DNA of 64,000 bases from Eledone cirrhosa (Eukaryota): positions 27,218,001-27,282,000 of the forward strand of contig OZ024760.1 in NCBI GenBank assembly GCA_964016885.1. Reading direction: 5' to 3'. Every line of letters starts with the position of its first letter. The stretch's first letter is position 1. Below the pieces are notes generated by a model. The model had not been told where the DNA came from. It worked only from the letters and a program-made list of their open reading frames with translations, and ran no database searches. Position numbers and translations under genes: made by a program. Positions 21,668-45,081 of this stretch are shown piece after piece.

Positions 21668-21725
<58 letters not shown>

Positions 21726-21865: not shown

Positions 21866-21931
21866 TATTTTATTATATATATTTCAGAGGTACTGAGCTA
21901 TTTCATCAGTACGTCCTCATCAGATAAAATA
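21866..21931 (-). ncRNA. Hammerhead ribozyme motif, family B variant
   Basis: On the - strand: UAUUUUAU-CUGAUGA-GGACGUACUGA...UCAGUACCUCU-GAAAUAUAUAUA^AUAAAAUA. The element 21723-21960 starts at a (TA)n tract. Confidence 0.7.
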
Positions 21932-22104
21932 AATTGATGTCTGACATACCTCAACTGTGCTGATGGTTCAATCCCAGTCTTGGCAGTGATTAGTTAAGAC
22001 AAAACTCAATATTTATATACCATAAGTTGTAACATGACAAACTACATATAATTGAGAGGGTGAGTAGGAAAATGTATAGAAAAAAATAAAATAAATACAT
22101 ATAA

Positions 22105-22446: not shown

Positions 22447-22763
22447 ATAGATAAATAAAATACATAAACACATCAGTACATAACTGTTAAATATTTAAAT
22501 AATTAAATATGTAAATATCCGTATTAGAGGAAAAAAACAAAAAACAAATGAGAGAGAGAGAGCTAAATAGAGGAGAAAAGGAAAAGATAGAGAGATGAAG
22601 ATAAAAACGAAGAAAGGGAGATATAGATAGTATAATATAACTACATAAGGAGAATAGAGGTATATGATGCATGACCATTTTTTTTCAAATATTAAGTTAG
22701 GTAGAAACGATCAATTAAATACCGTGAAATTTTTACTCTATAATATTTGAAAGAATATATATA

Positions 22764-22811
<48 letters not shown>

Positions 22812-23899
22812 GGAAAATTTGAACAGGAACAAAACAGAGAGGCAGTACAACGAATGTTTATTAATTTCACGCTCTGGAGAGTGGGGTGGTGGTGGAGAAC
22901 GACGTTTCGGGCATAAGCCCTTCCTCGGGTGAGAAGTGTGTGGGAAGAGAGTTCAAAGGGTGTGTAGGGGAGTGGTGGAGAGACATATAGCGAAAAGGGG
23001 GTGGGAGGAAACGGTGCGAATGAAATTAAAAATAAAAATAAAAATAAAGCATGATCAAAATAAAATGAAATTAAAAAGGGGTAAAACAGGTGGTGGAAGG
23101 GTGTGGGGTGTGTAGGCGTGGTGGCGGGTGGAGTGGGGAGAGGGAGACGGGGTGTCCGAGCGGGGAGGGCTGAAGGTGGTGTGTGTGTGTAGGTGTACGT
23201 GTGTGTGTGTGTGTGTGTATGTGAAAGCAAGGGTTGGGGGAAGAACGGGGTTGCATGTTCAGGAAGAGGTGTGTGTGGGGTTTAAGCGTGTTGTGGGTGT
23301 AGGTGGCGTGTGGGAGAAAAAATATTTTTTTGGGTGTGTGTGTGGGTGAGTTATATATATATATATATATATATTAGAATTGGTGCTCTGAAATAGCGAT
23401 GTATATATGAATGTATATATAGTATATTTGATAATATACCACATGTTTAATTAAAAACATTTTGAAGACCATTCGCTATGAATTTTAAAGTAGTGACCAT
23501 GTCACTTACTTATTCTCGGCATAAACAAAGGGGAGTAATTGACAGGCTGTTTCTCACTCGTTAGCGGTTATCAAGACTACTTTGCCCTTCGATTCTGCCA
23601 CAGGCCCCAACTGGTCACCCTGCGCTCGCAGGTTGTGTGTTTGGATGCCGCTTGGCCAAATAGTTAAACAGTTGACTTTGCACTCATTAGGTCCCAGGTT
23701 CAATCACATTGCATTCTATCTTTACCTTGTAAGTGAAATTGTGGGGATATGGGGAACTGTTTGGAAACCCATCATGAATTCAAGGGGTCAACCATGTCTC
23801 ACACTCACATACTGTATCATGCTGAATCTTAGTGGGAATTACCTAAGTGGCTGTGTATCTCACAAACACATGTACCCCTACCTAATATAATCCTCAGAT

Positions 23900-26260
23900 C
23901 AGTCAAGCTCATGGAAGTTATCCAATCTTGCTCAAGGTCTACCCCTGGGTCTCCTGCCGGTTGCTTTTGCCCATAAAATCTGTCCAGTTATTCTTTCCCG
24001 AGATATTCTAACCACATGCCCATAGTATCAGAGCTGTGATCTCTCAATTCAGAGAAATAGCAGCTCTACCTGGAGTGACTCTCTGATCTTTGAGCTACAA
24101 ATCTGTCCAGTGATTCTTTCCTGAGATATTCTAACCACACGCCCATAGTATCAGATTTGTGGTCTCTCAATTCAGAGAAATAGCAGCTCTACCTGGAGTG
24201 ACTCTCTGATCTTTGAACTACAAATCTGTCCAGTGATTCTTTCCTGAGATATTCTAACCACATGCCCATAGTATCAGAGCTGTGATCTCTCAATTCAGAG
24301 AAATAGCAGCTCTACCTGGAGTGACTCTCTGATCTTTTAGCTACAAATCTGTCCAGTGATTCTTTCCTGAGACATTCTAACCAAATGCCCATAGTATCAG
24401 AGCTGTGATCTCTCAATTCAGAGAAATAGCAGCTCTACCTGGAGTGACTCTCTGATCTTTTAGCTACAAATCTGTCCAGTGATTCTTTCCTGAGACATTC
24501 TAACCAAATGCCCATAGTATCAGAGCTGTGATCTCTCAATTCAGAGAAATAGCAGCTCTACCTGGAGTGACTCTCTGATCTTTGAGCTACAAATCTGTCC
24601 AGTGATTCTTTCCTGAGATATTCTAACCACATGCCCATAGTATCAGAGCTGTGGTCTCTCAATTCAGAGAAATAGCAGCTCTACCTGGAGTGACTCTCTG
24701 ATCTTTGAGCTACAAATCTGTCCAGTGATTCTTTCCTGAGATATTCTAACCACATGCCCATAGTATCAGAGCTGTGATCTCTCAATTCAGAGAAATAGCA
24801 GCTCTACCTGGAGTGACTCTCTGATCTTTGAGCTACAAATCTGTCCAGTGATTCTTTCCTGAGATATTCTAACCACATGCCCATAGTATCAGAGCTGTGG
24901 TCTCTCAATTCAGAGAAAAAGCAGCTCTACCTGGAGTGACTCTCTGATCTTTGAGCTACAAATCTGTCCAGTGATTCTTTCCTGAGATATTCTAACCACA
25001 TGCCCATAGTATCAGAGCTGTGATCTCTCAATTCAGAGAAATAGCAGCTCTACCTGGAGTGACTCTCTGATCTTTTAGCTACAAATCTGTCCAGTGATTC
25101 TTTCCTGAGACATTCTAACCAAATGCCCATAGTATCAGAGCTGTGATCTCTCAATTCAGAGAAATAGCAGCTCTACCTGGAGTGACTCTCTGATCTTTTA
25201 GCTACAAATCTGTCCAGTGATTCTTTCCTGAGACATTCTAACCAAATGCCCATAGTATCAGAGCTGTGATCTCTCAATTCAGAGAAATAGCAGCTCTACC
25301 TGGAGTGACTCTCTGATCTTTGAGCTACAAATCTGTCCAGTGATTCTTTCCTGAGATATTCTAACCACATGCCCATAGTATCAGAGCTGTGGTCTCTCAA
25401 TTCAGAGAAAAAGCAGCTCTACCTGGAGTGACTCTCTGATCTTTGAGCTACAAATCTGTCCAGTGATTCTTTCCTGAGATATTCTAACCACATGCCCATA
25501 GTATCAGAGCTGTGATCTCTCAATTCAGAGAAATAGCAGCTCTACCTGGAGTGACTCTCTGATCTTTGAGCTACAAATCTGTCCAGTGATTCTTTCCTGA
25601 GACATTCTAACCAAATGCCCATAGTATCAGAGCTGTGATCTCTCAATTCAGAGAAATAGCAGCTCTACCTGGAGTGACTCTCTGATCTTTGAGCTACAAA
25701 TCTGTCCAGTGATTCTTTCCTGAGATATTCTAACCACATGCCCATAGTATCAGAGCTGTGGTCTCTCAATTCAGAGAAAAAGCAGCTCTACCTGGAGTGA
25801 CTCTCTGATCTTTGAGCTACAAATCTGTCCAGTGATTCTTTCCTGAGATATTCTAACCACATGCCCATAGTATCAGAGCTGTGATCTCTCAATTCAGAGA
25901 AATAGCAGCTCTACCTGGAGTGACTCTCTGATCTTTTAGCTACAAATCTGTCCAGTGATTCTTTCCTGAGACATTCTAACCAAATGCCCATAGTATCAGA
26001 GCTGTGATCTCTCAATTCAGAGAAATAGCAGCTCTACCTGGAGTGACTCTCTGATCTTTTAGCTACAAATCTGTCCAGTGATTCTTTCCTGAGACATTCT
26101 AACCACATGTCCATAGTATCAGAGCTGTGATCTCTCAATTCAGAGAAGTAGCAGCTCTACCTGGAGTGACACTCTAATCTCCAAGCTACACACACTATCG
26201 AGTAATGTTACTCCAAAGACCCTTTGGAGAAACCTTATTTTGGTCGCTCGTGCAACCAAT
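23900..26260 (-). repeat. 123-bp satellite (~17-18 units) amplified inside an RTE-like LINE fragment
   Basis: Exact 123-bp period (cagctctacc at 24061, 24184, 24307...26152). On - the unit reads like IRESLQVELL..IERSQL*YYGHVVRISQERITGQI. Flanks give RFLQRVFGVTLLDSV (upstream) and ATGRRPRGRP (downstream), typical of RTE ORF C-termini. Confidence 0.88.
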
Positions 26261-26951
26261 TTTTTCCTCACATTACTTAGAATTAATCTGAGGTCATTGA
26301 AATAAAACATTCCCAAAATATCAGACAAGTCCAGCTGGAATAACATCTAGCAATGGTAGGTTTTTGTTTAACCCTTTAGCATTTAAACCGGCCATATCCG
26401 GCTAGAATTCTCTCACCTCTTTCTGTTCAAATCAGCTGTAACTTGCCACTCATACTGATGTTAAGGTATTGTTCTCAAAATAAATAATATAAAGATCTTG
26501 TAGATTCGATATTATGTGAGATAATTATGTAAGGTAAAGACTTTATCACAAAAATACGATAGTAAATATAGAGCAATGTGAATACTAAAGGTTTAAGAAG
26601 ACATTAAATGAGAGGTGAGATGGTGTCAACCTTCACAATCAACTTGAAATATAATATCCTTTATATTACCCACCAGATGGTTATAAAATTGTAAAAAAAA
26701 TTGTAATAAAATTGTAAATAGAAATAAACTACACAACTTCCTTTATGTCTAAACTAAAGTTTTTTCTTGTAAGTTATTTTTATATTCATTCAAATATAGA
26801 AAGGAACAAAGAAACTTATATAAAATATACAATAAGTTGACGGACCTAGCATGGGGTGCATCTCAGCGAACTCAATAGGTATGGTTAAATAATACGACAC
26901 ACGTCAATGGGTACTTTCAATCTTTACCTGTACTTGAGTTTCCGCCACACT

Positions 26952-27465
26952 TAACCGTTTAGCATTTACATTACTCTATATATACTATTGTATTTTTACA
27001 GTAAAGGCTTTACCTCACATAATATCTCACATAACATTTACATTACTCTATATATACTATTGTATTTTCACAGTAAAGGCTTTACCTCACATAATATCTC
27101 ACATAACATTCACATTACTCTATATATACTATTGTATTTTCACAGTAAAGTCTTTACCTCACATAATATCTCACATAACATTTACATTACTCTATATATA
27201 CTATTGTATTTTCACAGTAAAGGCTTTACTTCACATAATATCTCACATAACATTTACATTACTCTATATATACTATTGTATTTTCACAGTAAAGGCTTTA
27301 CCTCACATAACTATCTCACATAATATCAAATCTATGGGATTTTGAAAGTATTTATTTTGAGAACAATACCTTAACATCAGTTTCAGTGACCAGTTACAGC
27401 CAGTTTCAACAGAAAGTGGTAGAGAATTCTGGCCGGTTTGGGCCGGTTTGTACATTAAAGGGTTC
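26952..27465 (-). mobile_element. piggyBac-like MITE with internal 72-bp tandem expansion
   Basis: ttaacc(g)tttagcatttac...taaagggtt ends. The 72-bp unit cattactctatatatactattgtattttcacagtaaaggctttacctcacataatatctcacataacattta occurs about 5 times. Confidence 0.7.
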
Positions 27466-27926
27466 ATGCAGTAATAGAGTGCACAGCATCTATTGTCCGC
27501 ATTTATTATGCAACAATGCATAATCGGAACATGTGGCTTCATCAGAGGGTTTCGCCTATAACCAATCGATCAACAGAATTCCATTCCGGTCTGTGTCGGT
27601 TATGACTGTATCTGACGTCCAACACAGTAAAACATTAGTAACTGAAATCTCTACGCGTCATCACAATATATATAAAATAATTGTTTATACTTTTGGCACA
27701 AGGCCAGCAATTATCCCAGTACATTACTGGTACTTTATTTTATCGACACTGAAAGGATGAAAGGCAAAGTTAACCTCGGCGGGATTTGAACACAGATCGT
27801 AAAGGGCCGTAACTCTATGCTGTAAAGCATGGCAACAATATATATAAAATAATGTTAATGTAGAATAAATTCTTAAAGGCATTGGGCAGTACTAGAAAGC
27901 TGAAATTTTGAGGTCAGCAAGTTCAG

Positions 27927-27971
<45 letters not shown>

Positions 27972-27973
<2 letters not shown>

Positions 27974-28535
27974 AAAAAGAAAGTGCAGGGCGATAAAAAT
28001 AGACGGTAGCCACGGAGTAGGCAGACCCAGAAAAACCTGGGACGACTTGATAAATTCCGACCTCACACACTTACACCTCCCCAAGACAATGTCACTGGAT
28101 CGAGATCTTTGGCGCTACACAGTAATACAGAAGACCCGCCTTGCCTAAGTACAAAGCGAAACCTACAGTGAATAGGCACCTCTAACAAAAACACCCCCGT
28201 CCCACCACCCCCACCCCATCCACACCACCCCTTTCGATGTAAAGCTATGTTGGTACCACAACATCCAGTCCGAAATAAATGAGGTCGTGTAGGTGTCACG
28301 ACAAAAAAACACACAGTCCACGCTGTAATGTGGCCGTGTAGGTAACACGGTAAAAACCTCCCAGTCCACACTGTAAACGTGGTTGGTGTTAGGAAGGGCA
28401 TCCAGCCGTAGACAGCCCGCCAGACAGTCCTATGCGAGCGAGACAACCAATCTTGCCTCAAGTGGGAAAATTCCTGTCCAAACCCATGCAAGCATGGAAG
28501 ATGGACGTTAAACGATGATGATGATGATGATGATC
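27972..28535 (+). mobile_element. 5'-truncated RTE LINE (ORF end, 3'UTR and (GAT)n tail)
   Basis: Homologous to 31605-32138 ([28 protein letters not shown]...). Another copy at 40327-40908. Confidence 0.88.
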
Positions 28536-28549
28536 ATATATATATATAA

Positions 28550-28740
28550 TATAGAAATGGTTTCTACAGGACTAGAACTGTTTAATTCAGGAGAAATCAT
28601 CAGGAAGCCCTGATGATTTCTCCCGAATGAAACAGTTCTAGTCCTGTAGAAGCCATTTCTATATTAAATATTTATACTCTGCTATGTATTGAGTACCTTA
28701 CTTACTGTGGTTACCCCCGATTGACCTAGGGATAAACTTA
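28550..28740. mobile_element. Family A element with inverted tandem hammerhead motifs
   Basis: - copy at 28559-28609 (GGCUUC-CUGAUGA...UAAAC, core mutated) abuts the + copy at 28610-28654 (CUGAUGA...GAAACAGUUCUAGUCCUGUA^GAAGCC). The tail ...tgagtaccttacttac...gggataaac runs into (TA)n. Other family A pieces at 13561-13690, 16257-16350 and 38832-38886. Confidence 0.72.
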
Positions 28741-28943
28741 TATATATATTATATATAAGTTGCAGCTGTTCTATAGCAGATGAACAATCAAACCATAAAA
28801 GGCAGTCATAAAGCACTCACTGAGTGAGGAATTTATCAATTTCTCCTCATAGTGAACACAAAATCTTAAGGACTTGTGACACCATGAATAAAGCAGAGAC
28901 ATGTACAAACAATATGTAGAAACAGGTTGAAAAACTATATATA

Positions 28944-29045
28944 CAGGGTGTCCCAAAAAATGTATACTCACTTTGATTACCTGTACAGGCAATATTTATT
29001 AAAACACTGTTGAAGTGTGTATACATTTTTTTGAGGAACACCGTG
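28944..29045. mobile_element. Tc1/mariner-type MITE
   Basis: TA|cagggtgtcccaaaaaatgtatac...gtatacattttttgaggaacaccgtg|TA: imperfect TIRs with TA target sites. Confidence 0.7.
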
Positions 29046-29101
29046 TATATCTAGTTGTTGATGGAAGGGCCAATAACATTGTATTATATATATATATAAA
29101 T

Positions 29102-29925
<824 letters not shown>

Positions 29926-30211
29926 GGGCACTCCATCGATAATAACAGTCAGTGTTCCAACCAATAACATAACATTAGTGGACCAACAACCAACAACCAA
30001 CTGGTAGCAGTTACGGTACCAGTTACTGTAGAGTATCAATTTTGTCACTGTCAGCTGGCTTCTTTGCTTACCTACGCAGTTTTCTAGCTTGAAAGAAATG
30101 AATCAAACTAAACCAATTGCCTTCTTCCTCCACTCAAGTTTGTCACGTAGGCCATTGAGATGGGTTCCTCAGGATTTCCCAAACACAGGCATTCTACAAA
30201 TTATTCATTAT

Positions 30212-30242
<31 letters not shown>

Positions 30243-30369
30243 GTGTGTGTGTATATATGTATATATATATGTATGTGTATATATATATATATATGTATGT
30301 GTATATATATATATATGTATGTGTGTATATATATATATGTATGTGTATGTATGTGTATATATATATATA

Positions 30370-30506
<137 letters not shown>

Positions 30507-30647
30507 ATATATATAAGTATGTATGTATATATATATATACACACATATGTATATATATACAAACACATATATATATGTGTGTGTGTATATGTATATATAT
30601 GTATGTATATATGTGTGTATGTGTATATATATGTATATATGTGTGTA

Positions 30648-30678
<31 letters not shown>

Positions 30679-30820
30679 GTGTATGCGTATATATATGTAT
30701 ATATATATATATGTGTGTATGCGTATATATATGTATATATATATATATGTGTGTATGCGTATATATATGTATATATATATATATATGTATATGTATATGT
30801 ATATATATATGTATATATAT

Positions 30821-32138
30821 GTCGACCTGACACTCATAGCGGAATCAATGGCCGAGCTAGAGAAGAAATTCCAAACATGGAAGCACGGCCTAGAGTCAAA
30901 AGGACTTAAAATTAACCTGGCTAAGACCAAAGTTCTAGTTTGTAGGAAAGAAAACAAGGCGGCGGTCCTTTCTGGGAAATGGTCGTGCTCGGTATGTAGG
31001 AAAGGCGTAGGTAGAAACTCCATCTTATGTCCTAAATGCAAAGTATGGGTGCATAAAAGATGTAGTGGGATCACAGGTAAGCTAACTAAGAACATAGACT
31101 TTACATGTGGCCGGTGTTCTGGTGCAATAAGTAGCAGCAAGTGCCCACAAAATACTAGCTCTTTCAATTGCGCAGAGGGTTCTATAGAAATAGTGGACAG
31201 CTTCCGTTACCTGGGCGATAAAATCAGCAGTGGGGGAGGGTGCTCTGAAAGTACTGTAGCTAGAGTCAGAACTGGTTGGAAAAAGTTCAGAGAGCTTATA
31301 CCACTATTAGCTGCTAAAGGGTTCTCCCTAAAAATGAAAGGCAGGTTGTACGATGCCTGCATACGAACAGCAATGTTGCATGGTAGTGAGACCTGGGCAT
31401 TGTGTGCAGAGGATATACGCAGACTAGAGAGGAACGAAGCTTGCATGCTCCGCTGGATGTGTAACAGTAATATACGTGAACGGCAAAGCATAAACGAACT
31501 AAGGAAAAAATTAGAGATAAGAGGGATCAGATGTTGTTTACTCGAGAGAAGGCTGCGTTGGTATGGACACGTGATGCGCATGAAAGTCGATAGCTGTATT
31601 ACAAAGTGCAGGGCAATAAAGATAGACGGTAGCCACGGAATAGGCAGACCTAGAAAAACATGGGATGAGCTGATAAACTCCGACCTCACACACTTACACC
31701 TCTCCAAGACAATGTCACTGGACCGTGACCTTTGGCGGTACTCAGTAACAGAGAAGACCCGCCTTGCCAGTAGGCATCTCTAACAAACTACACCCCGTCC
31801 CGCCACCACCCCCACCCCATCCACACCACCCCGTTCTATGTAAAGTTATGTTGGTGCCGCGCCATCCAGGCCGAAACAAATGAGATCGTGTAGGTGTCAC
31901 GACAAAAAAACACACAGTCCACGCTGTAATGTGGCCGTGTAGGCAACACGGTAAAAACCTCCCAGACCCACACTGTAAATGTGGTTGGTGTTAGGAAGGG
32001 CATCCAACTGTAGAAAACCTGCCAGACAGTCCTATGCGAGCAAGACAATCACTCTTGCCTCAAGTGGGACTACCCCCGTCCAAACCCATGCAAGCGTGGA
32101 ACACGGACGTTAAACGTTGATGATGATGATGATGATGA
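30821..32138 (+). mobile_element. RTE-clade LINE 3' portion (RT C-terminus with Cys/His finger insert, 3'UTR, (GAT)n tail)
   Basis: Open frame to 31783: [15 protein letters not shown]...[21 protein letters not shown]...[12 protein letters not shown]...[14 protein letters not shown]...MLHGSETW...[11 protein letters not shown]...GRPRKTW. 5'-truncated into a microsatellite. Confidence 0.92.
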
Positions 32139-32142
32139 TATA

Positions 32143-32211
<69 letters not shown>

Positions 32212-32220
32212 ATGTATATA

Positions 32221-32260
<40 letters not shown>

Positions 32261-32411
32261 TATATATGTATATCATCATCATCATCATTTTACGTCCGCT
32301 CTTCCCAGCTTGCAAGGGTGGGACGGGTCTTATTCAGCACAGCATCTCTCCACTTGTCACGGTCCTTCCTCATCTCCACCGTGAGCTTCAGCGATCTGAT
32401 GTCTGTATATA

Positions 32412-32496
<85 letters not shown>

Positions 32497-32604
32497 GTAT
32501 ATATGTGTATATATTTATATATAAGTATACATATATGTGTGTATATATATGTGCATATGTATATGTGTGTGTATATATATATAACTGTGTGTGTATATAT
32601 ATAA

Positions 32605-32638
<34 letters not shown>

Positions 32639-33130
32639 ATATCAAAATATGTCATGTAAATGTCTTGCTTTCACCACCATATATTTCTGTATATAAAAAT
32701 ATATATGTGTATATATACATATATATCATCATCATAATCATTTCATTTTACGTCCACTTTTCCCTGCTTGCAAGGGAACTGATTCTGGCTTGATTTCTAC
32801 AGCTGGATGCCCTTCCTAACACCAACCTCATTTACAGTGAGTGCTGGGTGCTTTTTTTGCCGTGGCACCTACACGACCACTTTACAGTGGAATGATAGGG
32901 ACCCCAGTCCCTATCATCTCATTTCTACAGCTGAGTAAACTGGAACAATGTGAAATAAAGTCTCTTGCTCAAGGAAAAAACACATCACCCAGTCTGAGAA
33001 TTGAACTCACACCCTTTCAATTGCAAGGCCAATGCTCTAACCACTAAGCCATGTGCCTCCATATATATATATATAGATAGATATGCTATTAAGTTAGACA
33101 TGGCCTGGGCCAATACTGGCGAAACCTATC

Positions 33131-34350
33131 AAAGTTATATGTATGAGGAAGTTCCACACATGGAAACATGGCCTAGAATCAAAAGGTCTTAAGGTTAACT
33201 TATCTAAGACTAAAGTTCTAGTATGTAGAAAGGAAGATAGGGTACAGGTTCCTTCTGGGAAATGGCCATGTTGAGTGTGTAGGAAAGGAGTAGGCAGAAA
33301 TTCCATTCTATGTCCCAAATGCAAAGTATGGGTACATAAAAGATGTAGTGGGATCACAGGCAGGCTATCAAAGAACATAGATTTTATATGTGGCCAATGC
33401 TCAGGTGCAATAATTAGCAAGTGTGCACAGAATACTAGCTCCTTCAACTGCCCAGACAGCTCTATAGAAATAGTAGACACTTTCCATTACCTGGGTGACA
33501 AAATCAGCAGTGGTGGAGGGTGCTCTGAAAGTACTGTAGCCAGAGTTAGAACGGGATGGAAAAAGTTCAGAGTACTAATACCACTGTTGGCCACAAGGGG
33601 TTTTTCCCCTAAAAGTGAAAGGCAGATTGTATGATGCTTGTATACGAACGGTAATGTTACATGGTAGTGAGATTTGGGCGTTGTGTGCAGAGGACCTGTG
33701 TAGATTAGAAAGAAATGAAGCTTGCATGCTCCAATGGATGTGTAATAGTAATATACGTGAACTGCAAAGCATAAACGAATTGAGAGAGAGACTAAGCATA
33801 AGAGGTATCAAATGTTGTGTTCTAGAAAGGAGATTGCGTTGGTATGGACATGTGATGCGTATGAAGGACAACAGCTGTATAAAAAAGTGCAGGGCGATCA
33901 AAATTGATGGAAGCTACGGAGTGGGTAAACCAAGAAAAACCTGGCACGATGTGATAAAAAACTGACCTTGTTCACTTACACCTCTCTCAGGCGATGTCAC
34001 TGGATCGAGATCTTTGGCACTATGTAGTAATACAGAAGACCCGACTACCATTACATACAAACCTAGTCAGTAGACACCTCTTAACAGAATATACACCTCA
34101 CCCCCACACACCCTACTCCATCTTCCCATTTCCGTCCACTGTAAAGTGGTTGTGTCAGTGATACGACAAAAAGCACCCAGTCCACACTGTAAATGTGGTT
34201 GGTGTTAAGAAGGGCATCCAGCCATAGAAAACCTGCCAAGGACTGTTCTGTACGAGCGGGACACAATCTCTCGACCAATCTCGCCTCAAATAGAACAAAA
34301 CCATCCAACCGATACTGGCGTGGAAGATGGACGTTAAATGATGATGATGA
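33131..34350 (+). mobile_element. Second RTE LINE fragment, frameshifted
   Basis: Same protein in pieces (ORFs 33275-33634 and 33615-33965) with a stop and a frameshift; 3'UTR and (GAT)n tail. Confidence 0.9.
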
Positions 34351-34392
34351 TATACATATGTATGTACCTATATACATATGTATATACATATA

Positions 34393-35460
34393 TAAAAACA
34401 CACAGTCCACGCTGTAATGTGGCTGTGTAGGTAACACAGTAAAAACCTCCCAGTCCACACTGTAAACATGGTTGGTGTTAGGAAGGGCACCCAGCCGTAG
34501 AAAACCAGCCAGACGTGTAGGTATCACGACAATAAAACACACAGTCCACGCTGTAAGGTGGCTGTGTAGGTAACACAGTAAAAACCTCCCAGTCCACACT
34601 GTAAACATGGTTGGTGTTAGGAAGGGCACCCAGCCGTAGAAAACCAGCCAGACGTGTAGGTATCACGACAATAAAACACACAGTCCACGCTGTAAGGTGG
34701 CTGTGTAGGTAACACAGTAAAAACCTCCCAGTCCACACTGTAAACATGGTTGGTGTTAGGAAGGGCACCCAGCCGTAGAAAACCCACCAGACGTGTATGT
34801 ATCACGACAATAAAACACACAGTCCACGCTGTAAGGTGGCTGTGTAGGTAACACAGTAAAAACCTCCCAGTCCACACTGTAAACATGGTTGGTGTTAGGA
34901 AGGGCACCCAGCCGTAGAAAACCCACCAGACGTGTATGTATCACGACAATAAAACACACAGTCCACGCTGTAAGGTGGCTGTGTAGGTAACACAGTAAAA
35001 ACCTCCCAGTCCACACTGTAAACATGGTTGGTGTTAGGAAGGGCACCCAGCCGTAGAAAACCAGCCAGACGTGTAGGTATCACGACAATAAAACACACAG
35101 TCCACGCTGTAAGGTGGCTGTGTAAGTAACACAGTAAAAACCTCCCAGTCCACACTGTAAACATGGTTGGTGTTAGGAAGGGCACCCAGCCGTAGAAAAC
35201 CAGCCAGACGTGTAGGTATCACGACAATAAAACACACAGTCCACGCTGTAAGGTGGCTGTGTAAGTAACACAGTAAAAACCTCCCAGTCCACACTGTAAA
35301 CATGGTTGGTGTTAGGAAGGGCATCCAGCCGTAGAAAACCTGCCAGATAGTGCCATACAAGCGAGACATGGTCACCCGACAAATCTTGCCTTAGGTGGGA
35401 CAATTCCCATCTAAACCCATGCTAGCGTGGAAGATGGACGTTAAACGATGATGATGATGA
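34393..35460 (+). repeat. 139-bp tandem array (~7 units) of RTE 3'UTR sequence
   Basis: 139-bp period (ORF ends at 34478, 34617, 34756...). It ends in the normal RTE 3' terminus with (GAT)n. Confidence 0.92.
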
Positions 35461-35512
35461 TATGTGTGTGTGTATATATATATATATGTGTACATATAGA
35501 TGTGTGTGTATG

Positions 35513-35544
<32 letters not shown>

Positions 35545-35594
35545 CATGGTGTGTGTGTGTGTGTATACATATATATATATAATGCACATATAGG

Positions 35595-35697
35595 AGTAAA
35601 AACAGGAGAGAGAGATTAACCCTTGGAAATTCGTCTATTTAACCCTCTAACTCTTAGCAAAGTAAATACTACCACTACTTCACTTCTAATAATAATG

Positions 35698-35745
<48 letters not shown>

Positions 35746-35931
35746 ATAGTAGTAGTAATAGTAGTAGTAGTAATAGTAGCAGTAATACTACTACTACTAC
35801 TACTACTGCTGCTACTATTTCTACTACTACTACCATTATTATTATAAGTAGTGGTAGTATTTACTTTGCTAAGAGTTAGAGGGTTAAATAGACGAATTTC
35901 CAAGGATTAGTCTCCCTCTCTCTCCTGTTTT
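35595..35931. repeat. Inverted repeat with a (TAG)n/(CTA)n centre
   Basis: taaaaacaggagagagag...gtctatttaaccctctaactcttagcaaagtaaatactaccactactt and its reverse complement flank a microsatellite that switches strand. Confidence 0.85.
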
Positions 35932-36035
35932 TAGTAGTAGTAATACTACTACTACTACTACCACTACCCCCACATTTCCAGAACATTCTCTACAACCAGT
36001 ACAATGCCAGCAGTAACCAATATACCAAACTTGTG

Positions 36036-36130
36036 TACGTGTAAATGTGTACGTCATAAAGTTGCCACGTGTTTTACTATATTCACTGCCAACGCCAAAA
36101 CTTGTCTCTCTCTCTAGACCGGAAGTGACG
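36036..36130 (+). promoter_or_regulatory. Intronic transcription-factor motif cluster (candidate enhancer or alternative promoter)
   Basis: TACGTG (36036), TACGTCA (36050), GCCACGTG (36064) and CCGGAAGTGACG (ETS plus half-CRE, 36119) within 95 bp of non-repeat sequence. Confidence 0.4.
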
Positions 36131-36328
36131 ACATCACTAGACAGCAGTGCTTCCTTTACCATTCTCCCACTACACTGGCACAAACATGTGTAGATTATAG
36201 TATACTGTATAGTATAGTATGCTGTATATTATAAACACAACTCCGTTTTTTTTTTCTTTACCCTTCCTTCCCCCCACACCTCGACAAGAGCTAAGGAAAG
36301 GGCTTATGTATGTAGGTATGCGTGTATG

Positions 36329-36370
<42 letters not shown>

Positions 36371-38790
36371 TATATATAAATATATATATGTCTATATATA
36401 AATATATGTATATATGTATGTATATATGTATGTATATATATATGTATGTATATATGTATGTATATATATATGTATATATATATATATATGTGTATATGTA
36501 TGTATATATATATATATATATGTGTATATGTATGTATATATATATATGTGTATATGTATGTATATATATATATATGTGTATATGTATGTATATATATATA
36601 TATGTGTATATGTATGTATATATATATATATGTGTATATGTATGTATATATATATATATGTGTATATGTATGTATTTATATATATATGTGTATGTATATA
36701 GATATATATGTGTATATATAGATATATATGTGTATATATATATGTATATATATATATACATATATATATACATGGTCGGGTCATTGGCGACTAAACTGGC
36801 AACCCCACCAAGGTTTCTTGGTGAGGAGGGTGACTTTGGACATCCTGCAGGACTAAAAACAAAACCTGTCAAAGGGCAAAGGAGCTCTTAAGAGTCAATA
36901 GCCATCCAAAATCACCGGGAGAGATGACCCCTTAGCCTTTGTCAAGGCAGAATTCTAGGAGAAGGAAAACTCTGATATAACACCTGCAACCCTGATGGTA
37001 TCCAATGATGTTGACTTGTTCTTCTTTTTGGTAAATATCATCTTGGTTAAGAGAGTGGGACTGGCTTTGTGCAGTGCCTTTGCTCACTATAAAAGCTTCA
37101 CGGCACAGGCATTGCTTTATATCTGGAGAGCTCTCTGCACTTGTTGTCACATGGTACCATGGGCCCAGCACTATGTATCAATAATTGTCACAAGTGTAGT
37201 GTTTGTACCAGAGTTTTCAAGTCGCTGGCTGGATTAAAAAGTCACACTCGTTCAGCGCATCGGTAGGGGTTCTCCTACATGGATATAAAGTAGTGGCCGT
37301 ACTCGAAAACGAGTTGGCAGCCACCATATATATATATGTGTGTATATGTATGTATATATATGTATATATATGTAGATGTATATATGTATGTATATATATA
37401 TATATGTATGTATATATATATGTGTGTATATATATATATGTATATATATATATATGTATATATATATGTTTTTATATGTATGTATATATATATAAAGAAT
37501 CAATTCAAGATTGTCTAAAGTTATATATATATATAGTTGTTTATATATATATATACATATATAACGAAGGACGTGTGGTAAGGAACCAGATAGACCATAC
37601 CGTACCAGAATACTCAATACTTAGGGTAGTAGAGTGAGTAATAGGAAAAAGTTTAACCCCGGCGGCAGAACTCAAACTTTGAGCTCTGCCGTCCGGGTTA
37701 AACTTTTTCCTATATATATATATATTATATTCAAAGTATATATATATTATATTCATGTCATGTTTGAGATAATTTAAAACATGTGTCTTGTCTCACAAAA
37801 TAAGCTTTCAAAGAATTAATCCAAGCATTTAATCATTACAAAATAGTGAATGACATATGTATATACATATATATCTACTGATATAAATGTATAACAGAAC
37901 ATATCAAACTTTAATCGCAGACAATCTGTATAGAATGGAATACTTAGTTCGTTATATATCATCATCATCATCATCATTTCATTTTACGTCCGCTTTTTCC
38001 TTGCTTGCAAGGGTGGGACGGAAACTGATTCTGGCTTGATTTCTACAGCTGGATGCCCTTCCTAACACCAACCTCATTTACAGTGAGTGGTGGGTGCCTT
38101 TTTGTCGTGGCACCTCCACGACCACTTTGCAGTGGAATGATATGGACCCCACTCTCTATCATTTCATTTCTACAGCTGAATAAACTGGAGCAATATGAAA
38201 TAAAGTGTCTTGCTCAAGGAAACAACACATCACCCGGTCTGAGAATTGAACTCACAACCTTTCGATTGCAAGGCCAATGCTCTAACCACTAAGCCATGTG
38301 CCTCCATGTATATATATATATAAGGAACGATCGACTTTCGTCAAATCGAACCGAGGAAACAATGTTTCCATGGGTCTTTCCAATTGCTAACACTATCTAT
38401 CGGTTGCAACTCCAGGTAGAAGGAGCAGCATGAAATAAAGTGTCTTGCTCAAGGACATAACGCATCACCCGGTCCAGGAATCGAACTAACAACCTCACAA
38501 TTGCGAATCCAATTTTCTAACCACTCAGCCACACGTCTTCACTCTCAGCCACACACCTTCACCTTACACACACACATATATATATATATGTAAGGTGGCC
38601 ATGTAGGAGACACAGTTAAAAAGCTCCCAGTACTCACTGTAAATGTGGTTGGTGTTAGGAAGGGCATCCAGCTGTAAAAAAACCTGCCAGAAACGCTTCA
38701 GTGCGACCGAGACATGGTCTCCCGACCATTCCTGCATCAAATGGAACAAAACTGTCTAACCCATGCTAGCGTGGAAGATGGACATTAAAC

Positions 38791-38830
<40 letters not shown>

Positions 38831-39208
38831 TATGAAACAGTTCTAGTCCTGTAGAAGCCATTTCTATATTAAAATGTTATACTCTCCGGATGGTTGTTTA
38901 TATATTGTGTTGTGTGATAGCTCACAACACCCAAAAACCAGATAGTTAGGACAGAACAAAGGAGAGACACAAAATAAAATCGTAGTCACTGGGGAGGTCA
39001 CAGAAAGTGTGACAAAAGAACTTTGACAATATATAAACAACCATCCAGTTATCAAACCAACCAACCAACCGGAAATTTATAATAAATTGAAGTAAAAACT
39101 AACAGGTGCATGTGTTTTTATTGGTAGCATGACCCTCCCAAAGTATAAATATCTGTTTCAACACACGTTTTCAGATAAGAAATCTTGCAAAACGAATTCA
39201 AAAACGAA

Positions 39209-39250
<42 letters not shown>

Positions 39251-39412
39251 AAATTTCGCTCTACGTGGCTGAATACAATAAATGTAATCTGAGTTTTTCA
39301 AATATTAATAATAACATTCGATTCATTTGCAATTATGCAAACAAGCCTCAATTTTATAGCCATGTCAGTAGAATGAACACTTCATTCTTGCTCTTGTGTT
39401 GGCATGTGAACA

Positions 39413-39462
39413 GAACTGCAGACACTAATGTTTCTGGGTATCACCCTTCATCAGTACAGCTC
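39413..39462 (-). ncRNA. Canonical type I hammerhead ribozyme, family F (antisense copy)
   Basis: Reverse complement of 39944-39993. Confidence 0.83.
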
Positions 39463-39943
39463 ACTGCTCACCTGCCAAACTCTCAGAGCTAGTGAAAATA
39501 TATGCTATTTTCAAAAATACACAGTGACTGATCAGCTTGATTTGCATATTAGCAGATCCACTGATCAATCAGATTTGCATATCAGCAGACTGGCCAGTCA
39601 GTTTCCTGTATACGGGCGATAAATGGCCGGCTTTGCCAAATTCAAATAAAAAAGAAAATGTTCGCTCTACATGGCTGAATACAATAAATGTAGTCTGAGT
39701 TTTTTGAATATTAATAATAACATTCGATTCATTTGCAAATATATTGAATGTTGTTGTTAATATGCAGGAAACTGACTGGCCAGTCTGCTGATATGCAAAT
39801 CTGGCTGATCAGTGGATCTGCTAATATGCAGATCTGACTGATCAGCCAGTCTGTTAATATGCAAATCAAGCTGATCAGTGACTGTGTATTTTTGAAAATA
39901 GCAGATATTTTCACTAGCTCTGACAGTTTGGTAGTTGAACAGT

Positions 39944-39993
39944 GAGCTGTACTGATGAAGGGTGATACCCAGAAACATTAGTGTCTGCAGTTC
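39944..39993 (+). ncRNA. Canonical type I hammerhead ribozyme, family F
   Basis: GAGCUGUA-CUGAUGA-A GGGU[GAU]ACCC A-GAAACA[UUAG]UGUC^UGCAGUUC: 8-bp stem I, 4-bp stem II, 3-bp stem III and a GUC triplet; predicted cleavage after 39985. Confidence 0.85.
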
Positions 39994-41121
39994 TGTTCAC
40001 ATGCCAACACAAGAGCAAGAAAGAAGGGTTTATTCTACTGACATGGCTATAAAATTGAGGCTTGTTTGCATAATTGCAAACAAATCAAATGTTATTATTA
40101 ATATTCGAAAAACTCAGATTATATTTATTATATATGTATATATATATATACTTCATTTCTGAATTTGTACATATATATATTTTTTAATAAATATTTGTTC
40201 TAGGGTTTTTATATATTTGATATATATTTATCCTTATCGAGCCCTCTTTGGATTTTTGTCTTCAAATTTATTATTATTACTATCATCATCATCTTCATCT
40301 ACTATAATATATATATATATATATATGAAAGACGACAGCTGTATAAAAAAGTGCAGGGCAATAAAAATAGACGGTAGCCACGGAGTAGGCAGACTCAGAA
40401 AAACCTGGGACGACTTGATAAATTCCGACCTCACACACTTACACCTCTCCAAGACAATGTCACTGGACTGAGATCTTTGGCGCTACACAGTAATAGAGAA
40501 GACCTGCCTTACCTAAGTACAAAGTGAAACCTACTACAGTCAGTAGGCACCTCTAACAAAATACACCCCGTTCCACTACCCCCACCCCATCCACACCGCC
40601 CCTTTCAATGTAAAGTTATGTTGGTACCACACCATCCAGGCCGAAACAAATGAGATCGTGTAGGTGTCACGACAAAAAACACACAGTCCACGCTGTAATG
40701 TGGCCGTGTAGGCAACACGGTAAAAACCTCCCAGCCCCACACTGTAAATGTGGTTGGTGTTAGGAAGGGCATCCAACTGTAGAAAACCCGCCAGACAGTC
40801 CTATGCGAGCAAGACAACCACTCTTGCCTCAAGTGGGAAAACCCCCGTCCAAACCCATGCAAGCGTGGAACACGGACGCTAAACCTGATGATGATGATGA
40901 TGATGATGTATACATATATACGTATGTATGTGTATATATATATATATTCTGAATTCTCTTGGGCCTCCTATTAACTGTCCTTAACATGTCTGTCTGTCAC
41001 AATGGTTGAATCTATTTTAAACTATAGGGGTGTGTGGTATGGGGTAGGATACCAGGAAGTGTCCTTGACATTTTGAGAGGGGACAATTGGTAAATTGTGT
41101 AAAATGGATTTATTACATCCC

Positions 41122-42292
41122 TTACACCACCACCACCACCACTACCAACACCACCACCACTACCCACACCACCACTACCACCATCACAACCACCACCAAC
41201 AACACCACCACCACCACCACCACTACTACCACCACCACTACCACCATCACAACCACCACCAACACCACCAGTACCACCATCAACACCACCGACACCGCCA
41301 CCACCACTACCACCATCACAACCACCGCCACCACTACCAACACCACCACTACCACCATTACAACCACCACCAACAACACCACCACCACTACCAACACCAC
41401 CACTACCACCACCACTACCACCACCACCACAACCACCAACACTGCCACCACTACCAACACCACCACTACCACCATCACAACCACCACCACCACAACCACC
41501 ACCTCCAGAACCACCACCACCACTACCACCATCGCAACCACCACCAACAACACCGCCATCACCATCACTACCAACACCACCACTACCACCATCACAATCA
41601 CCGCCACCAACACCACCACTACCACCATCACAACCACCACCAACAACACCACCACCACTACCAACACCACCACTACCACCACCACCACAACCAACAACAC
41701 TGCCACCACCACCACTACCACCACCACCACAACCAACAACACCGCCATCACCACCACTACCAACACCACCACTACCACCACCACTACCACCATCACAACC
41801 ACCACCACTACCACCATCACAACCACCACCACCACTACAACCATCACAACAACCACCACCATCATTTCCACCACTACCAACAACAATAATAATACCACCA
41901 CTGGTGGTGATGGTGGTGGTGGTTGTGATGGTGGTGGTAATGGTGGTGGTGGTGGTGGTGTGGGGGTGGTGATGATGATGGTGGTGGTGGTGGTGGTTGG
42001 AGAGATGGTATAATTGCAATTATGGTGTTTGATGTAATGGTGGTGGTGGTGGTGTAGTGTGGTTGTGATGGTGGTGGTGGTGGTGGTGTAGTATGGTTAT
42101 ATGGGTGGTGGTGGTGGTGATGGTGTAGTGTGGTTGTGGTGGTGGTGGTGGTGGTGGTGTAGTGTGGTTGTGGTAGTGGTGGTGGTGTAGTATGGTTATA
42201 TGGGTGGTGGTGGTGGTGATGGTGTAGTGTGGTTGTGGTGGTGGTGGTGGTGGTGGTGGTGTAGTGTGGTTGTGGTGGTGGTGGTGGTGTAG
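41122..42292. repeat. (CAC/ACC)n trinucleotide-rich tract switching to (GGT)n at ~41900
   Basis: Directly visible. A similar (CAC)n tract is at 53990-54410. Confidence 0.95.
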
Positions 42293-42526
42293 GCTCACCC
42301 CACTCCCCGCAATAAAACCAAACTATATTCTAATAGAATTACTAAATGATTTTGTTGTAAAAGAACAAATGAATTGTTTTTAACCCTTTAGCATTTAAAC
42401 TGGTCACAACCGGCCAGAATTCTCTCTCTTCTTCCTGTTCAAACTGACCTAGGAGATTAATGTAAATGTTAAAAGGTTAAAGTATAATATTATCTCTAAC
42501 TTCATAACCTTATTGTAAAAATTGTA

Positions 42527-42576
<50 letters not shown>

Positions 42577-43334
42577 CTTAAACTTTATATATATCGTCTA
42601 ACCCATGCTAGCGTGGAAGAACGGACGTAAAACGGTGATGATGATGATGATGATATATATATATTTGCTTAAACTTTAATCTGTTATTTTAATAAATATT
42701 TGCTCTATGGTTCTTATATATTTGATATATATTTATCCTTATCGAGCCATCTTTGGATTTTAGTCTTCAAATTTATTATTATTACTATATATATATATAT
42801 ATATATCATCATCATCATTTTACGTCCACTTTTCCCTGCTTGCAAGGGTGGGACGGGAACTGATTCTGGCTTGATTTCTACAGCTGGATGCCCTTCCTAA
42901 CACCAACCTCATTTACAGTGAGTGCTGGGTGCTTTTTTGCCGTGGCGCCTCCACGACCACTTTGCAGTGGAATGATAGGGACCCCAGTCCCTATCATCTC
43001 ATTTCTACAGCTGAGTAAACTGGAGCAATGTGAAATAAAGTGTCTTGCTCAAGGAAACAACACATCACCCGGTCTGAGAATTGAACTCACACCCTTTCAA
43101 TTGCTAGGTCAATGCTCTAACCACTAAGCTATGTGCCTCCATATATATATGCATATATATATATATATGTGTGTGTATGTACAGTATGCTTCCCCCCTCC
43201 CCCAGCCCACACTGTCAATGTGGCGGGTGTTACGAAGGGCAACCAGCCGGAAAATTATATGTCTGTGTATATATATATATATATGTACGTACAGTATGCC
43301 CCACTCTCCAACTCACGCAGGATGTGTGAGAGAC

Positions 43335-44370
43335 AGTAAAAAGCACCCAGTCCACACTGTAAAGTGGTCATGTAAAAGACACAGTAAAAATCACCCAGTC
43401 CACACTGTAAAGTGGTCATGTAAAAGACACAGTAAAAATCACCCAGTCCACACTGTAAAGTGGTCATGTAAAAGACACAGTAAAAATCACCCAGTCCACA
43501 CTGTAAAGTGGTCATGTAAAAGACACAGTAAAAAGAACCCAGTCCACACTGTAAAATGTTTGTGTAAAAGACATGGCAAAAAGCACCCAGTCCACACTGT
43601 AAAGTGGTCATGTAGGTGACACAACAAAAAGCACCCAGTCCACACTGTAAAGTGGTCATGTAAAAGACACAGTAAAAATCACCCAGTCCACACTGTAAAG
43701 TGGTCATGTAAAAGACACAGTAAAAATCACCTAGTCCACACTGTAAAGTGGTCATGTAAAAGACACAGTAAAAAGAACCCAGTCCACACTGTAAAATGTT
43801 TGTGTAAAAGACATGGCAAAAAGCACCCAGTCCACACTGTAAAGTGGTCATGTAGGTGACACAACAAAAAGCACCCAGTCCACACTGTAAAGTGGTCATG
43901 TAGGTGACACAACAAAAAGCACCCAGCACACACTGTAAAGTGGTCATGTAGGTGACAACAAAAAGCACCCAGCACACACTGTAAAGTGTTCGTATAAAAG
44001 ACATGGCAAAATGCACCCAATACACACTATAAAGTGGTCGTGTAGGTGACATGGTAAAAAGCACCCAGCACACACCGTAATGTGGACTTGTAAAAGACAG
44101 TAAAAAGCACCCAGCACACACTGTAAAGTGTTTGTGTAAAAGAAATGGCAAAAAGCACCCAGTCCACACTGTAAAGTGGTCATGTAGGTGACACAACAAA
44201 AAGCACCCATGTGGTTGGGCGTTAGGAAGGGCATCCAACCGTAGAAAACCAGCCAGAAACACTCCTGTATGAGCGAGACACGGACACCCGACACAACTTG
44301 CCTCTAAATGGGACCCGTCTAACCCATGCTAGCGTGGAAGATAGACATTAATCGATGATGATGATGATGA
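43335..44370 (+). repeat. 48-bp minisatellite grown from the RTE/SINE 3' tail
   Basis: Unit aaaagcacccagtccacactgtaaagtggtcatgtaaaagacacagt, followed by the normal RTE tail and (GAT)n. The same module is expanded at 45410-46415, 56680-56910 and 63075-64000 (-). Confidence 0.9.
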
Positions 44371-44485
44371 TAGATATTGTTATACTTGCCAATACAAACA
44401 GACGCACCTGTTGGTTGTCACTTCAATTTATTATAAATTTCCGGTTGGCTGGTTGGTTCGATAACGGGAAGGTTGTTTATATATT

Positions 44486-44528
44486 GTCAAAGCTCTTTCG
44501 TCACACATTCCGTGACCTCCTCAGTGAC
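44486..44528 (-). ncRNA. Minimal hammerhead motif, family I
   Basis: On the - strand: GUCA-CUGAGGA-G GUCAC[GGAAUGU]GUGAC-GAAAGAGCUU^UGAC. Degenerate relatives at 38985-39030 and in the inverted pair at 54850-55160. Confidence 0.62.
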
Positions 44529-45081
44529 TAGGTTTTTATTTTGTCTCTCTCCTTTGTTCTGCCCTACACCATCTTGTTTTTGTGTAAAACAAGTTATATA
44601 AATGCTCTCTCCTTCTGTTGTATGTATGTTTGAGTGTATGTGTAGATGAGTGAGTGTGTATGCATATGTTTTTGTGTGTACATGTGTGTATGTATGTATG
44701 TGTGTATGTATGTGTATGTGTACGTGTGTGTGTGTGTATGTATGTGTGCATATGTAAGAGTATACAATATGGCTGTAAGTTTTATAAATTCTCTCTCCTT
44801 CTGTTGTATATATGTGTATGTATGTTTGAGTGTATGTGTACGTGTGTATGTGTACGTGTGTATGTATGTGTAGGAGTGTGTGTGTACGTGTGTGTGTGAA
44901 TGTAAGTATGTATGCATATATGAGTGTATTCTGTTGTCTATATGTGTATGTATGTTTGAGTGTATGTGTACATCTGTATGCATGTTTTGTGTGTACGTGT
45001 GTGAATGTAAGTATGTGTGCATAAGTGAGTGTATACAACATGGCTGTAAGTTTTATAAATTCTCTCCCCTTGTATTTCCAG

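What the first reader, a model, noticed from the sequence alone, without database searches (positions are those of the whole stretch)
39246..40130. Best ribozyme candidate: canonical GUC hammerhead present on both strands of an inverted pair
39944-39993 has all conserved core nucleotides, an 8-bp stem I, GC-rich stem II, 3-bp stem III and a GUC triplet. The inverted arm carries an identical 50-nt copy (39413-39462), while surrounding arm sequence shows scattered differences. The + copy is on the P4HA pre-mRNA strand. Pairing of the two arms would compete with ribozyme folding, which could act as an off-switch (inference).
Basis: partly seen in the sequence, partly recalled or inferred. Interest (0 to 1): 0.75.

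Follow-up and report, generated by a model that had tools for sequence, protein, structure and literature searches.

The report
Penelope-type repeat with dimer hammerhead ribozyme
This is one of more than a thousand copies of a small non-coding repeat, likely a Penelope-type jumping element, with a hammerhead-shaped RNA motif; the back-to-back pair is the family's usual insertion shape and likely not a gene switch, although sister copies that start exactly at the predicted cut suggest the motif did cut its RNA in the past.

Summary
The motif and its identical inverted copy are real, but it is neither canonical nor locus-specific. It belongs to a non-coding repeat with a ~400-440-nt unit; its 34-nt core occurs 1,104 times exactly in this genome. 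Copies show Penelope-like (PLE) anatomy: partial tandems, inverted 5'-truncated partners (35 of 56 loci), two 3' ends ~30 nt apart, (TA)n flanks. The hammerhead has an A.A mismatch at 10.1/11.1 and a weak stem III inside a 10-nt palindrome, the dimer-type design of PLE hammerheads; alone it is predicted to misfold. Across copies it is no more conserved than its flanks, and 6 of 27 other two-arm loci also have identical ribozymes. Arm pairing is predicted to bury it on both strands, a by-product of insertion; three more inverted hammerhead pairs lie in the same P4HA intron. One result adds interest: 11 of 125 copy 5' ends fall exactly on the base after the cut site (about 2.4 expected), suggesting cleavage in vivo despite the mismatch. 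The scan noted a similar hint before in another genome. No RNA data or cleavage assay. New member of a known kind.

The parts
39211..39245 (.). (TA)n microsatellite, left flank (likely the insertion target)
   Evidence: Sequence; 111 of 139 long 3' ends and 113 of 128 short 3' ends of other copies run into TA-rich sequence
39246..39651 (-). One full repeat unit (406 nt; numbered 1 at 39651 to 406 at 39246), left arm
   Evidence: Self-alignment and 406-nt direct-repeat spacing; mapping on other loci
39246..39272 (-). ~27-32-nt 3' 'tail', present on the left arm only
   Evidence: Two 3'-end classes at unit positions ~374-379 and ~406; 57 of 81 tail-out inverted pairs have one long and one short end
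39413..39462 (-). Hammerhead copy on the minus strand; predicted cut 39421/39420
   Evidence: Identical to 39944-39993
39525..39605 (-). 33-nt internal repeats with an octamer-like word (two units here; one to three in other copies)
   Evidence: role not tested
39652..39742 (-). 3' ~91 nt of the preceding unit: partial tandem, pseudo-LTR-like
   Evidence: 93% match to 39241-39336; 21 of 56 other loci have partial tandems
39743..39760 (.). Inversion junction with a short fold-back filler
   Evidence: Self-match 39698-39773, sequence; template switching is inferred
39761..40130 (+). Inverted, 5'-truncated unit (right arm, three 33-nt repeats, short 3' end)
39944..39993 (+). Type I hammerhead motif: stem I 39944-39951/39986-39993, core 39952-39958 and 39972-39975, A.A at 39959/39971, stem II 39960-39970, predicted cut 39985/39986
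   Evidence: cleavage not assayed
39975..39984 (+). 10-nt self-complementary stem III/loop 3 (10 of 10 positions pair, two G.U), the predicted dimer helix
   Evidence: duplex -8.8 kcal/mol
40131..40150 (.). (TA)n-rich right flank
   Evidence: Sequence
5154..45081 (+). Host intron of a prolyl 4-hydroxylase alpha gene (P4HA)
   Evidence: Pfam P4Ha_N on both flanking exons; in-frame GT..AG join

Best explanation
This is one copy of a high-copy non-coding repeat, likely a non-autonomous Penelope-like retroelement, whose hammerhead motif is predicted to work as a dimer on the element's own RNA; at this locus the inverted arms are predicted to keep it folded shut, so it likely does nothing to P4HA. 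Mechanism: tandem units are transcribed (inferred); two hammerheads pair through the 10-nt palindrome to build a stable stem III (predicted) and cut some RNAs after C17, setting a 5' end at unit position 232 (inferred from the pile of copy ends, shown); a PLE reverse transcriptase/GIY-YIG protein supplied in trans nicks (TA)n and starts cDNA at two sites ~30 nt apart, ~145 and ~175 nt downstream of the cut (two end classes and TA flanks shown; enzyme inferred); the two cDNAs are joined head to head, giving the inverted pair with one tailed and one untailed end (anatomy shown, mechanism inferred). Cutting is partial: both arms here, and most copies, run through an uncut hammerhead. After insertion the copies decay at about the same rate inside and outside the ribozyme (shown).
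For: 1,104 exact core copies, control 0; 2,798 first-look candidates. 35 of 56 loci inverted, 21 partial tandem, 13 with the ribozyme in both arms. Of 415 segments, 128 end short, 139 long, 73 run into the next unit, 75 end elsewhere. These are the PLE features described in PMC8557442 and PMC11167929. Short palindromic stem III matches PLE/metazoan dimer hammerheads in PMC4209133. 11 of 125 5' ends in positions 135-262 fall exactly at 232; 0.5 per nt in 190-229 against 2.6 per nt in 233-241; simulated nulls give 2.3-2.4 at 232 and reach 11 in 0 of 5,000 and 0 of 3,000 runs. Substitution rate 3.2% in the ribozyme, 3.5% upstream, p 0.44. The genome holds RT + GIY-YIG elements (10,597 first-look GIY-YIG candidates; both domains in 2 of 3 ORFs scanned), one with a hammerhead in both terminal repeats (L169). 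Whole element: ribozyme bases pair with the other arm on both strands.
Against: No autonomous partner sharing sequence was found in 40 GIY-YIG loci; the only matches were what look like nested copies of the repeat itself in L158, L177 and L179, L158 lying within L179. The A.A mismatch breaks the pair that PMC3088659 calls the most conserved after 15.1-16.1. The double-hammerhead fold (-32.6 kcal/mol) is less stable than the best dimer fold (-40.6), so the model does not favour the active dimer without help. The pile at 232 was first noticed in data later included in the test; of 6 hits in the later loci 2 were re-finds, leaving 4 new. PMC11167929 found uncut RNA the main template in vitro and no reads at the cut site for another PLE. 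Core positions mutate slightly less than upstream (2.6% vs 3.5%, p 0.06).
Confidence: 0.85

Rival explanations
1. Host-adopted switch: the intronic ribozyme cuts P4HA pre-mRNA when arm pairing is relieved (for example by editing, helicases or protein binding).
For: Sense orientation in the intron; arms identical over the ribozyme, naive p about 0.02; arm pairing excludes the ribozyme fold.
Against: No on-state predicted even without the partner arm (exact fold probability 2e-5); no second same-strand copy of this ribozyme in the window to dimerise with; same arrangement at 13 of 56 other loci; identical ribozymes at 6 of 27 other two-arm loci, pooled arm differences 4.4% inside vs 5.4% outside, p 0.16; three more inverted pairs in the same intron.
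Confidence: 0.04
2. Same element, but the hammerhead was already dead in the master copy because of the A.A mismatch; the family spread on uncut RNA, and 5' ends pile near 232 because reverse transcriptase stalls in the long stem I hairpin or joins by microhomology at the short palindrome at 231-236.
For: A.A in 125 of 140 copies, and only 27 exact matches with another base at 11.1; most copies run through the ribozyme; raised end density across 233-251, the 3' side of the hairpin; 8 of the 11 ends at 232 were classed as inversion junctions; cleavage not needed in vitro for another PLE.
Against: The single highest position is the exact cut site, at the far end of the stem rather than its entry; nulls with chance and reverse-complement microhomology give about 2.4; all other core bases and three stems are intact in the family; other hammerheads beside RT/GIY-YIG ORFs in this genome read with a U.U mismatch at the same place, and U.U is a known natural variant.
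Confidence: 0.25
3. A classical non-LTR retrozyme that replicates through a ~400-440-nt circular RNA made by double cleavage of tandem arrays.
For: Unit size and type I motif fit PMC7229834; copies cross the unit junction in 73 of 415 segments, 14 of them including a second complete hammerhead; a 2026 preprint derives animal retrozymes from PLE pLTRs. This overlaps with the best explanation.
Against: Most loci are dispersed single or one-and-a-half units with inversions and tails, not long arrays; upstream units mostly start at or after the cut site (57 of 70), as expected from linear cut RNA rather than from reading round a circle.
Confidence: 0.2

Closest known systems
Hammerheads of metazoan Penelope-like elements and short-stem-III type I hammerheads (Cervera and de la Pena 2014, PMC4209133; parts 1-2 of 4 read)
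   Same: Type I, short helix III with palindromic 15.2-16.2/loop 3, expected to act as dimers; dispersed single motifs; pairs 100-700 bp apart on opposite strands are explicitly reported there.
   Different: Their consensus has one extra base between 9 and 10.1 and a G10.1-C11.1 pair; here there is an A on both sides of stem II (an A.A mismatch, or one extra base on each side). Stem I (8 bp, extendable) and the palindrome (10 nt) are longer.
Penelope-like element insertions, EN+ clades (Craig et al. 2021, PMC8557442, passages read; Frangieh et al. 2024, PMC11167929, parts 1-2 of 4 read)
   Same: Partial tandems, adjacent inverted 5'-truncated copy, 30-40-bp tail at one end, microsatellite or AT-rich targets, 3' ends set by internal priming downstream of the hammerhead.
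   Different: No RT/EN reading frame; partner not identified. Frangieh et al. saw no reads at the cut site, whereas here genomic 5' ends peak at it.
Non-LTR retrozymes of animals (Cervera and de la Pena 2020, PMC7229834, passages read; Li et al. 2026 preprint 10.64898/2026.07.22.740005, part 1 of 5 read)
   Same: Non-coding unit of a few hundred nt, low GC, one type I hammerhead per unit, proposed non-autonomous PLE derivatives.
   Different: Mostly dispersed monomers and partial tandems with inversions; circular RNA not shown; this copy is intronic.
Natural hammerhead core variants with U10.1-U11.1 (Perreault et al. 2011, PMC3088659, passages read)
   Same: A mismatch at the first position of stem II in a natural motif.
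   Different: A.A, not U.U; the paper says U.U is the best-tolerated mispair and its search rejected other hits mispaired there.

Membership tests
Type I hammerhead ribozyme | Core C3 U4 G5 A6 N7 G8 A9, G12 A13 A14, A15.1-U16.1, H17 | tested here: met
Type I hammerhead ribozyme | Three stems, stem I open-ended | tested here: met
   8, 4 and 3 bp can form; not the predicted lowest-energy fold
Type I hammerhead ribozyme | Paired 10.1-11.1 at the base of stem II | tested here: not met
   A.A here and in 125 of 140 copies; so not canonical, at most a variant
Type I hammerhead ribozyme | Match to an Rfam hammerhead model | tested here: not met
   None at gathering score or E up to 10
Type I hammerhead ribozyme | Self-cleavage after H17 | not testable with these tools
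   Indirect only: 11 of 125 copy 5' ends at the site
Type I hammerhead ribozyme | Loop 1-loop 2 tertiary contacts | not tested
   Not examined
PLE dimer-type hammerhead | Short stem III with palindromic loop allowing an intermolecular helix | tested here: met
   10 of 10 positions pair, -8.8 kcal/mol
PLE dimer-type hammerhead | Extra base between 9 and 10.1 followed by G10.1-C11.1 | tested here: inconclusive
   An A precedes a G-C pair, but a second A sits between that C and G12 (compared)
Non-autonomous Penelope-like element | Partial-tandem (pLTR-like) organisation | tested here: met
   39652-39742; 21 of 56 loci
Non-autonomous Penelope-like element | Adjacent inverted 5'-truncated copy | tested here: met
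   35 of 56 loci
Non-autonomous Penelope-like element | 30-40-bp tail at one end | tested here: met
   Ends at ~374-379 and ~406, i.e. 27-32 nt apart; 57 of 81 pairs long+short
Non-autonomous Penelope-like element | AT-rich or microsatellite target | tested here: met
   224 of 267 canonical 3' ends followed by TA-rich sequence, against 7 of 49 other ends
Non-autonomous Penelope-like element | Sequence shared with an autonomous RT + GIY-YIG element | tested here: inconclusive
   None in 40 GIY-YIG loci, a small sample of 10,597 candidates
Non-LTR retrozyme | Tandem units each with a complete type I hammerhead | tested here: inconclusive
   14 of 73 junction-crossing units include a second hammerhead; this locus has none in tandem
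Non-LTR retrozyme | Unit-length circular RNA | not testable with these tools
   No RNA run was available to test

The most novel reading that the evidence does not exclude
A hammerhead with an A.A mismatch at 10.1/11.1, a form that standard searches discard, cut its RNA in vivo, and the genome records it: copies of this Penelope-type repeat start at the exact cut nucleotide. That would be genomic evidence that ribozyme cleavage sets the 5' end of a share of PLE retrotransposition templates, a role that in vitro work on another PLE could not show.
Probability: 0.6. Interest if true: 0.5.

Novelty: new member of a known kind. Interest (0 to 1): 0.3.

Why it matters
As a locus it is ordinary: one of over a thousand repeat copies, in the insertion shape typical of Penelope-like elements. 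The family-level result is more useful. The role of hammerheads in PLE mobility is open (PMC4209133 reports low activity; PMC11167929 found cleavage unnecessary in vitro). A nucleotide-exact peak of copy 5' ends at the cut site offers a purely genomic readout of past cleavage that can be applied to any PLE family, and it suggests that an A.A mismatch at the base of stem II is tolerated.

Tried and rejected
Rfam found no hammerhead; the E-value run gave only hairpin-type matches below gathering score. Ribozyme more conserved than flanks: rejected; the lower rate seen in loci chosen on the ribozyme (3.7% vs 5.6%, p 0.02) disappears in loci chosen on other parts (5.6% vs 4.9%). A subfamily with a restored 10.1-11.1 pair: only 27 exact matches with a non-A at 11.1 (14 G, 9 T, 4 C), consistent with decay. 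Autonomous partner: not found in 40 loci or upstream of unit starts. A pile of segment starts at unit position 340 proved to be a different repeat inserted there, not a partner. A Pfam accession recalled for a PLE domain was not in the library. Lunse et al. 2017 on dimeric PLE hammerheads is not held; I know it only from a review's passages and reference list and recall; one search fetched an unrelated paper. Literature searches: hammerhead + octopus gave 4 listed papers, none on this family; PLE + cleavage site + truncated copies gave 1; 10.1/11.1 mismatch gave 2 unrelated. These do not show absence from print; supplements of PMC4209133 and PMC3088659, which list many motifs, were not read. 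The species was not determined: 'octopus' was my recalled guess used as a search word; PMC13282606 (O. vulgaris repeats) has no mention of hammerhead or ribozyme in its main text. Rows dropped before counts: window copies, duplicate segments, segments at locus edges, segments with poor 5' alignment or not reaching position 300, and segments selected through the ribozyme (415 distinct, 319 kept, 125 starting in 135-262). Duplicate removal was by sequence and may be imperfect.

Full report
Observation. The 50 nt at 39944-39993 are identical to the reverse complement of 39413-39462. They hold the hammerhead core, a GUC triplet ending at C17 = 39985, an 8-bp stem I with two G.U pairs, a 4-bp stem II and a 3-bp stem III. 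The motif is not canonical: the bases that should pair at the foot of stem II (39959 and 39971) are both A. Rfam found no hammerhead at gathering score or among 22 matches at E up to 10. The + copy lies in sense in a ~40-kb intron (5154-45081): the flanking exons match consecutive parts of Pfam P4Ha_N and join in frame through GT..AG.

Anatomy. Between two (TA)n tracts lie, on the minus strand, a full 406-nt unit (39246-39651) preceded by the last ~91 nt of another unit (39652-39742), then a short fold-back filler, then an inverted, 5'-truncated unit on the plus strand (39761 to ~40130). I number the unit 1-406 in ribozyme sense, which puts C17 at 231. The left arm ends at 406, the right at ~374-379.

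It is a repeat. The genome is 3.0 Gb (species not determined). The 34-nt core occurs 556 + 548 times exactly, the reversed control 0 times; a 251-nt query gave 2,798 first-look candidates, the best at 95-96%. Of 56 other loci, 35 are inverted pairs, 13 have the ribozyme in both arms and 21 have partial tandems. Of 415 distinct segments, 128 end at the short site and 139 at the long site, with TA-rich sequence next in 113 and 111 cases; 73 cross into the next unit and 75 end elsewhere. In 57 of 81 tail-out pairs one arm is long and one short, as here. Partial tandems, an adjacent inverted truncated copy, a 30-40-bp tail at one end and microsatellite targets are the PLE features listed by Craig et al. 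(PMC8557442, passages); Frangieh et al. trace the tail to two internal priming sites (PMC11167929, parts 1-2). Cervera and de la Pena report PLE hammerheads 100-700 bp apart on opposite strands (PMC4209133, parts 1-2). The genome has many GIY-YIG loci; 2 of 3 ORFs scanned carry RT then GIY-YIG (the RT scores lie just under Pfam's cut-off), and L169 has a hammerhead in both terminal repeats. No partner sharing sequence with this family was found in 40 loci, so the mobilising enzyme is inferred.

Folding. Alone, the 50-mer is predicted to fold into an inactive form in which the first core strand pairs with the stem III region (-16.4 against -10.2 kcal/mol; probability of the exact hammerhead fold 2e-5). 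Stem III and its loop (39975-39984) form a 10-nt palindrome in which all ten positions pair, the hallmark of dimer-type hammerheads. The double-hammerhead fold scores -32.6, the best dimer fold -40.6, so the model does not favour it unaided; for another PLE the ribozyme cut only with the element's protein present. In the whole element the ribozyme pairs with the other arm on both strands and in a transcript ending 20 nt past it; forcing the hammerhead costs about 92 kcal/mol. Secondary-structure energies ignore tertiary contacts and Mg2+.

Conservation. The arms differ at 23 of 317 sites and at none in the ribozyme, naive p about 0.02. This does not hold up at family level: 6 of 27 other two-arm loci are also identical there, pooled arm differences are 4.4% inside and 5.4% outside (p 0.16), and in 140 copies not selected on the ribozyme the substitution rate is 3.2% inside and 3.5% upstream (p 0.44); core positions are at 2.6% (p 0.06) and 31 copies equal the window's 50-mer. 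Both arms simply keep the family's majority sequence. A.A is the family state (125 of 140; 27 exact matches with another base at 11.1). Perreault et al. describe a natural U.U at this position as the best-tolerated mispair and rejected other mispaired hits (PMC3088659, passages); hammerheads beside several RT/GIY-YIG ORFs in this genome read with U.U there.

A footprint of cutting. Among 319 segments not selected through the ribozyme, 103 extend 5' of position 135, 125 start in 135-262 and the rest start further 3'. Eleven of the 125 start exactly at 232, the first base after C17, each with a different flank; density is 0.5 per nt in 190-229, 2.6 in 233-241 and 2.1 in 242-251. Simulations with uniform starts over 226-262 and chance extension into real or reverse-complement flanks give 2.3-2.4 at 232 and reach 11 in 0 of 5,000 and 0 of 3,000 runs. 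Of 70 upstream tandem units, 11 include a second ribozyme, 2 start in 191-229 and 57 start at 230 or later. Caveats: I saw the pile first; of 6 hits among 63 starts in the later loci, 2 were re-finds, leaving 4 new; loci were top-scoring hits, not a random sample; stalling in the stem I hairpin would also raise ends in 233-251, though it does not predict the peak at the exact cut. I read this as partial cleavage of the element's RNA in vivo (about 0.7). An earlier AI note on another genome (e1-9317145) mentions a few insertions ending at the predicted cut; that is a lead, not support.

The switch idea. The off-state is physically plausible, but there is no predicted on-state, no same-strand partner copy in the window, no sign of selection, and the arrangement is common. 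The same intron holds three more inverted hammerhead pairs of other repeats (8438/8566, 17184/17330, 29201/29360) and a further sense motif at 8936. I give host adoption about 0.04.

Verdict. A real but non-canonical, dimer-type hammerhead in a non-autonomous Penelope-type repeat; a new member of a known kind. It works like PLE and retrozyme hammerheads; it fails the canonical 10.1-11.1 test, and neither cleavage, expression nor the partner enzyme was shown. Interest 0.3, carried by the 5'-end peak and the A.A variant rather than by this locus.

Noticed in passing
window 8380-8624, 17085-17428, 29097-29464: Three more inverted repeats (93-95% identical arms), each with a type I hammerhead on both strands (8438-/8566+, 17184-/17330+, 29201-/29360+) with A10.1-U11.1, a GUA triplet (AUA in the 8438 copy) and a palindromic stem III; same P4HA intron.
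   Followed up: partly
window 8860-9045: A related sense hammerhead at 8936 inside a short element whose two ends are complementary to each other; a similar, scrambled motif on the minus strand near 21909-21923.
   Followed up: no
window 9039-9405: Second copy of the studied family: an inverted pair of 3' fragments between (TA)n tracts, without the ribozyme.
   Followed up: partly
L032:2111-2292, L073, L074, L112, L143 and others (unit position ~337-358): A different, tRNA-like repeat has inserted again and again at the same AT-rich site of this family; 17 segments start at position 340 for this reason.
   Followed up: partly
window 39525-39605 and 39771-39880: 33-nt internal repeats, one to three per unit, each with an octamer-like word and able to form hairpins, ~60-150 nt upstream of the ribozyme; a promoter role is a guess.
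   Followed up: no
L169:3452 and 8431 (-); also L170, L173, L177, L180: RT + GIY-YIG element with ~1-kb terminal repeats carrying a minimal hammerhead with the U3-A8 core covariation.
   Followed up: partly
L171, L172, L175, L182; L178, L180: Two other hammerhead families near GIY-YIG ORFs that read with a U.U mismatch at 10.1/11.1; L178 holds four tandem copies ~490-510 nt apart.
   Followed up: no
window 22112-22180: Marginal tRNA match (29.2 bits, gathering 29), probably the head of a tRNA-derived SINE.
   Followed up: no
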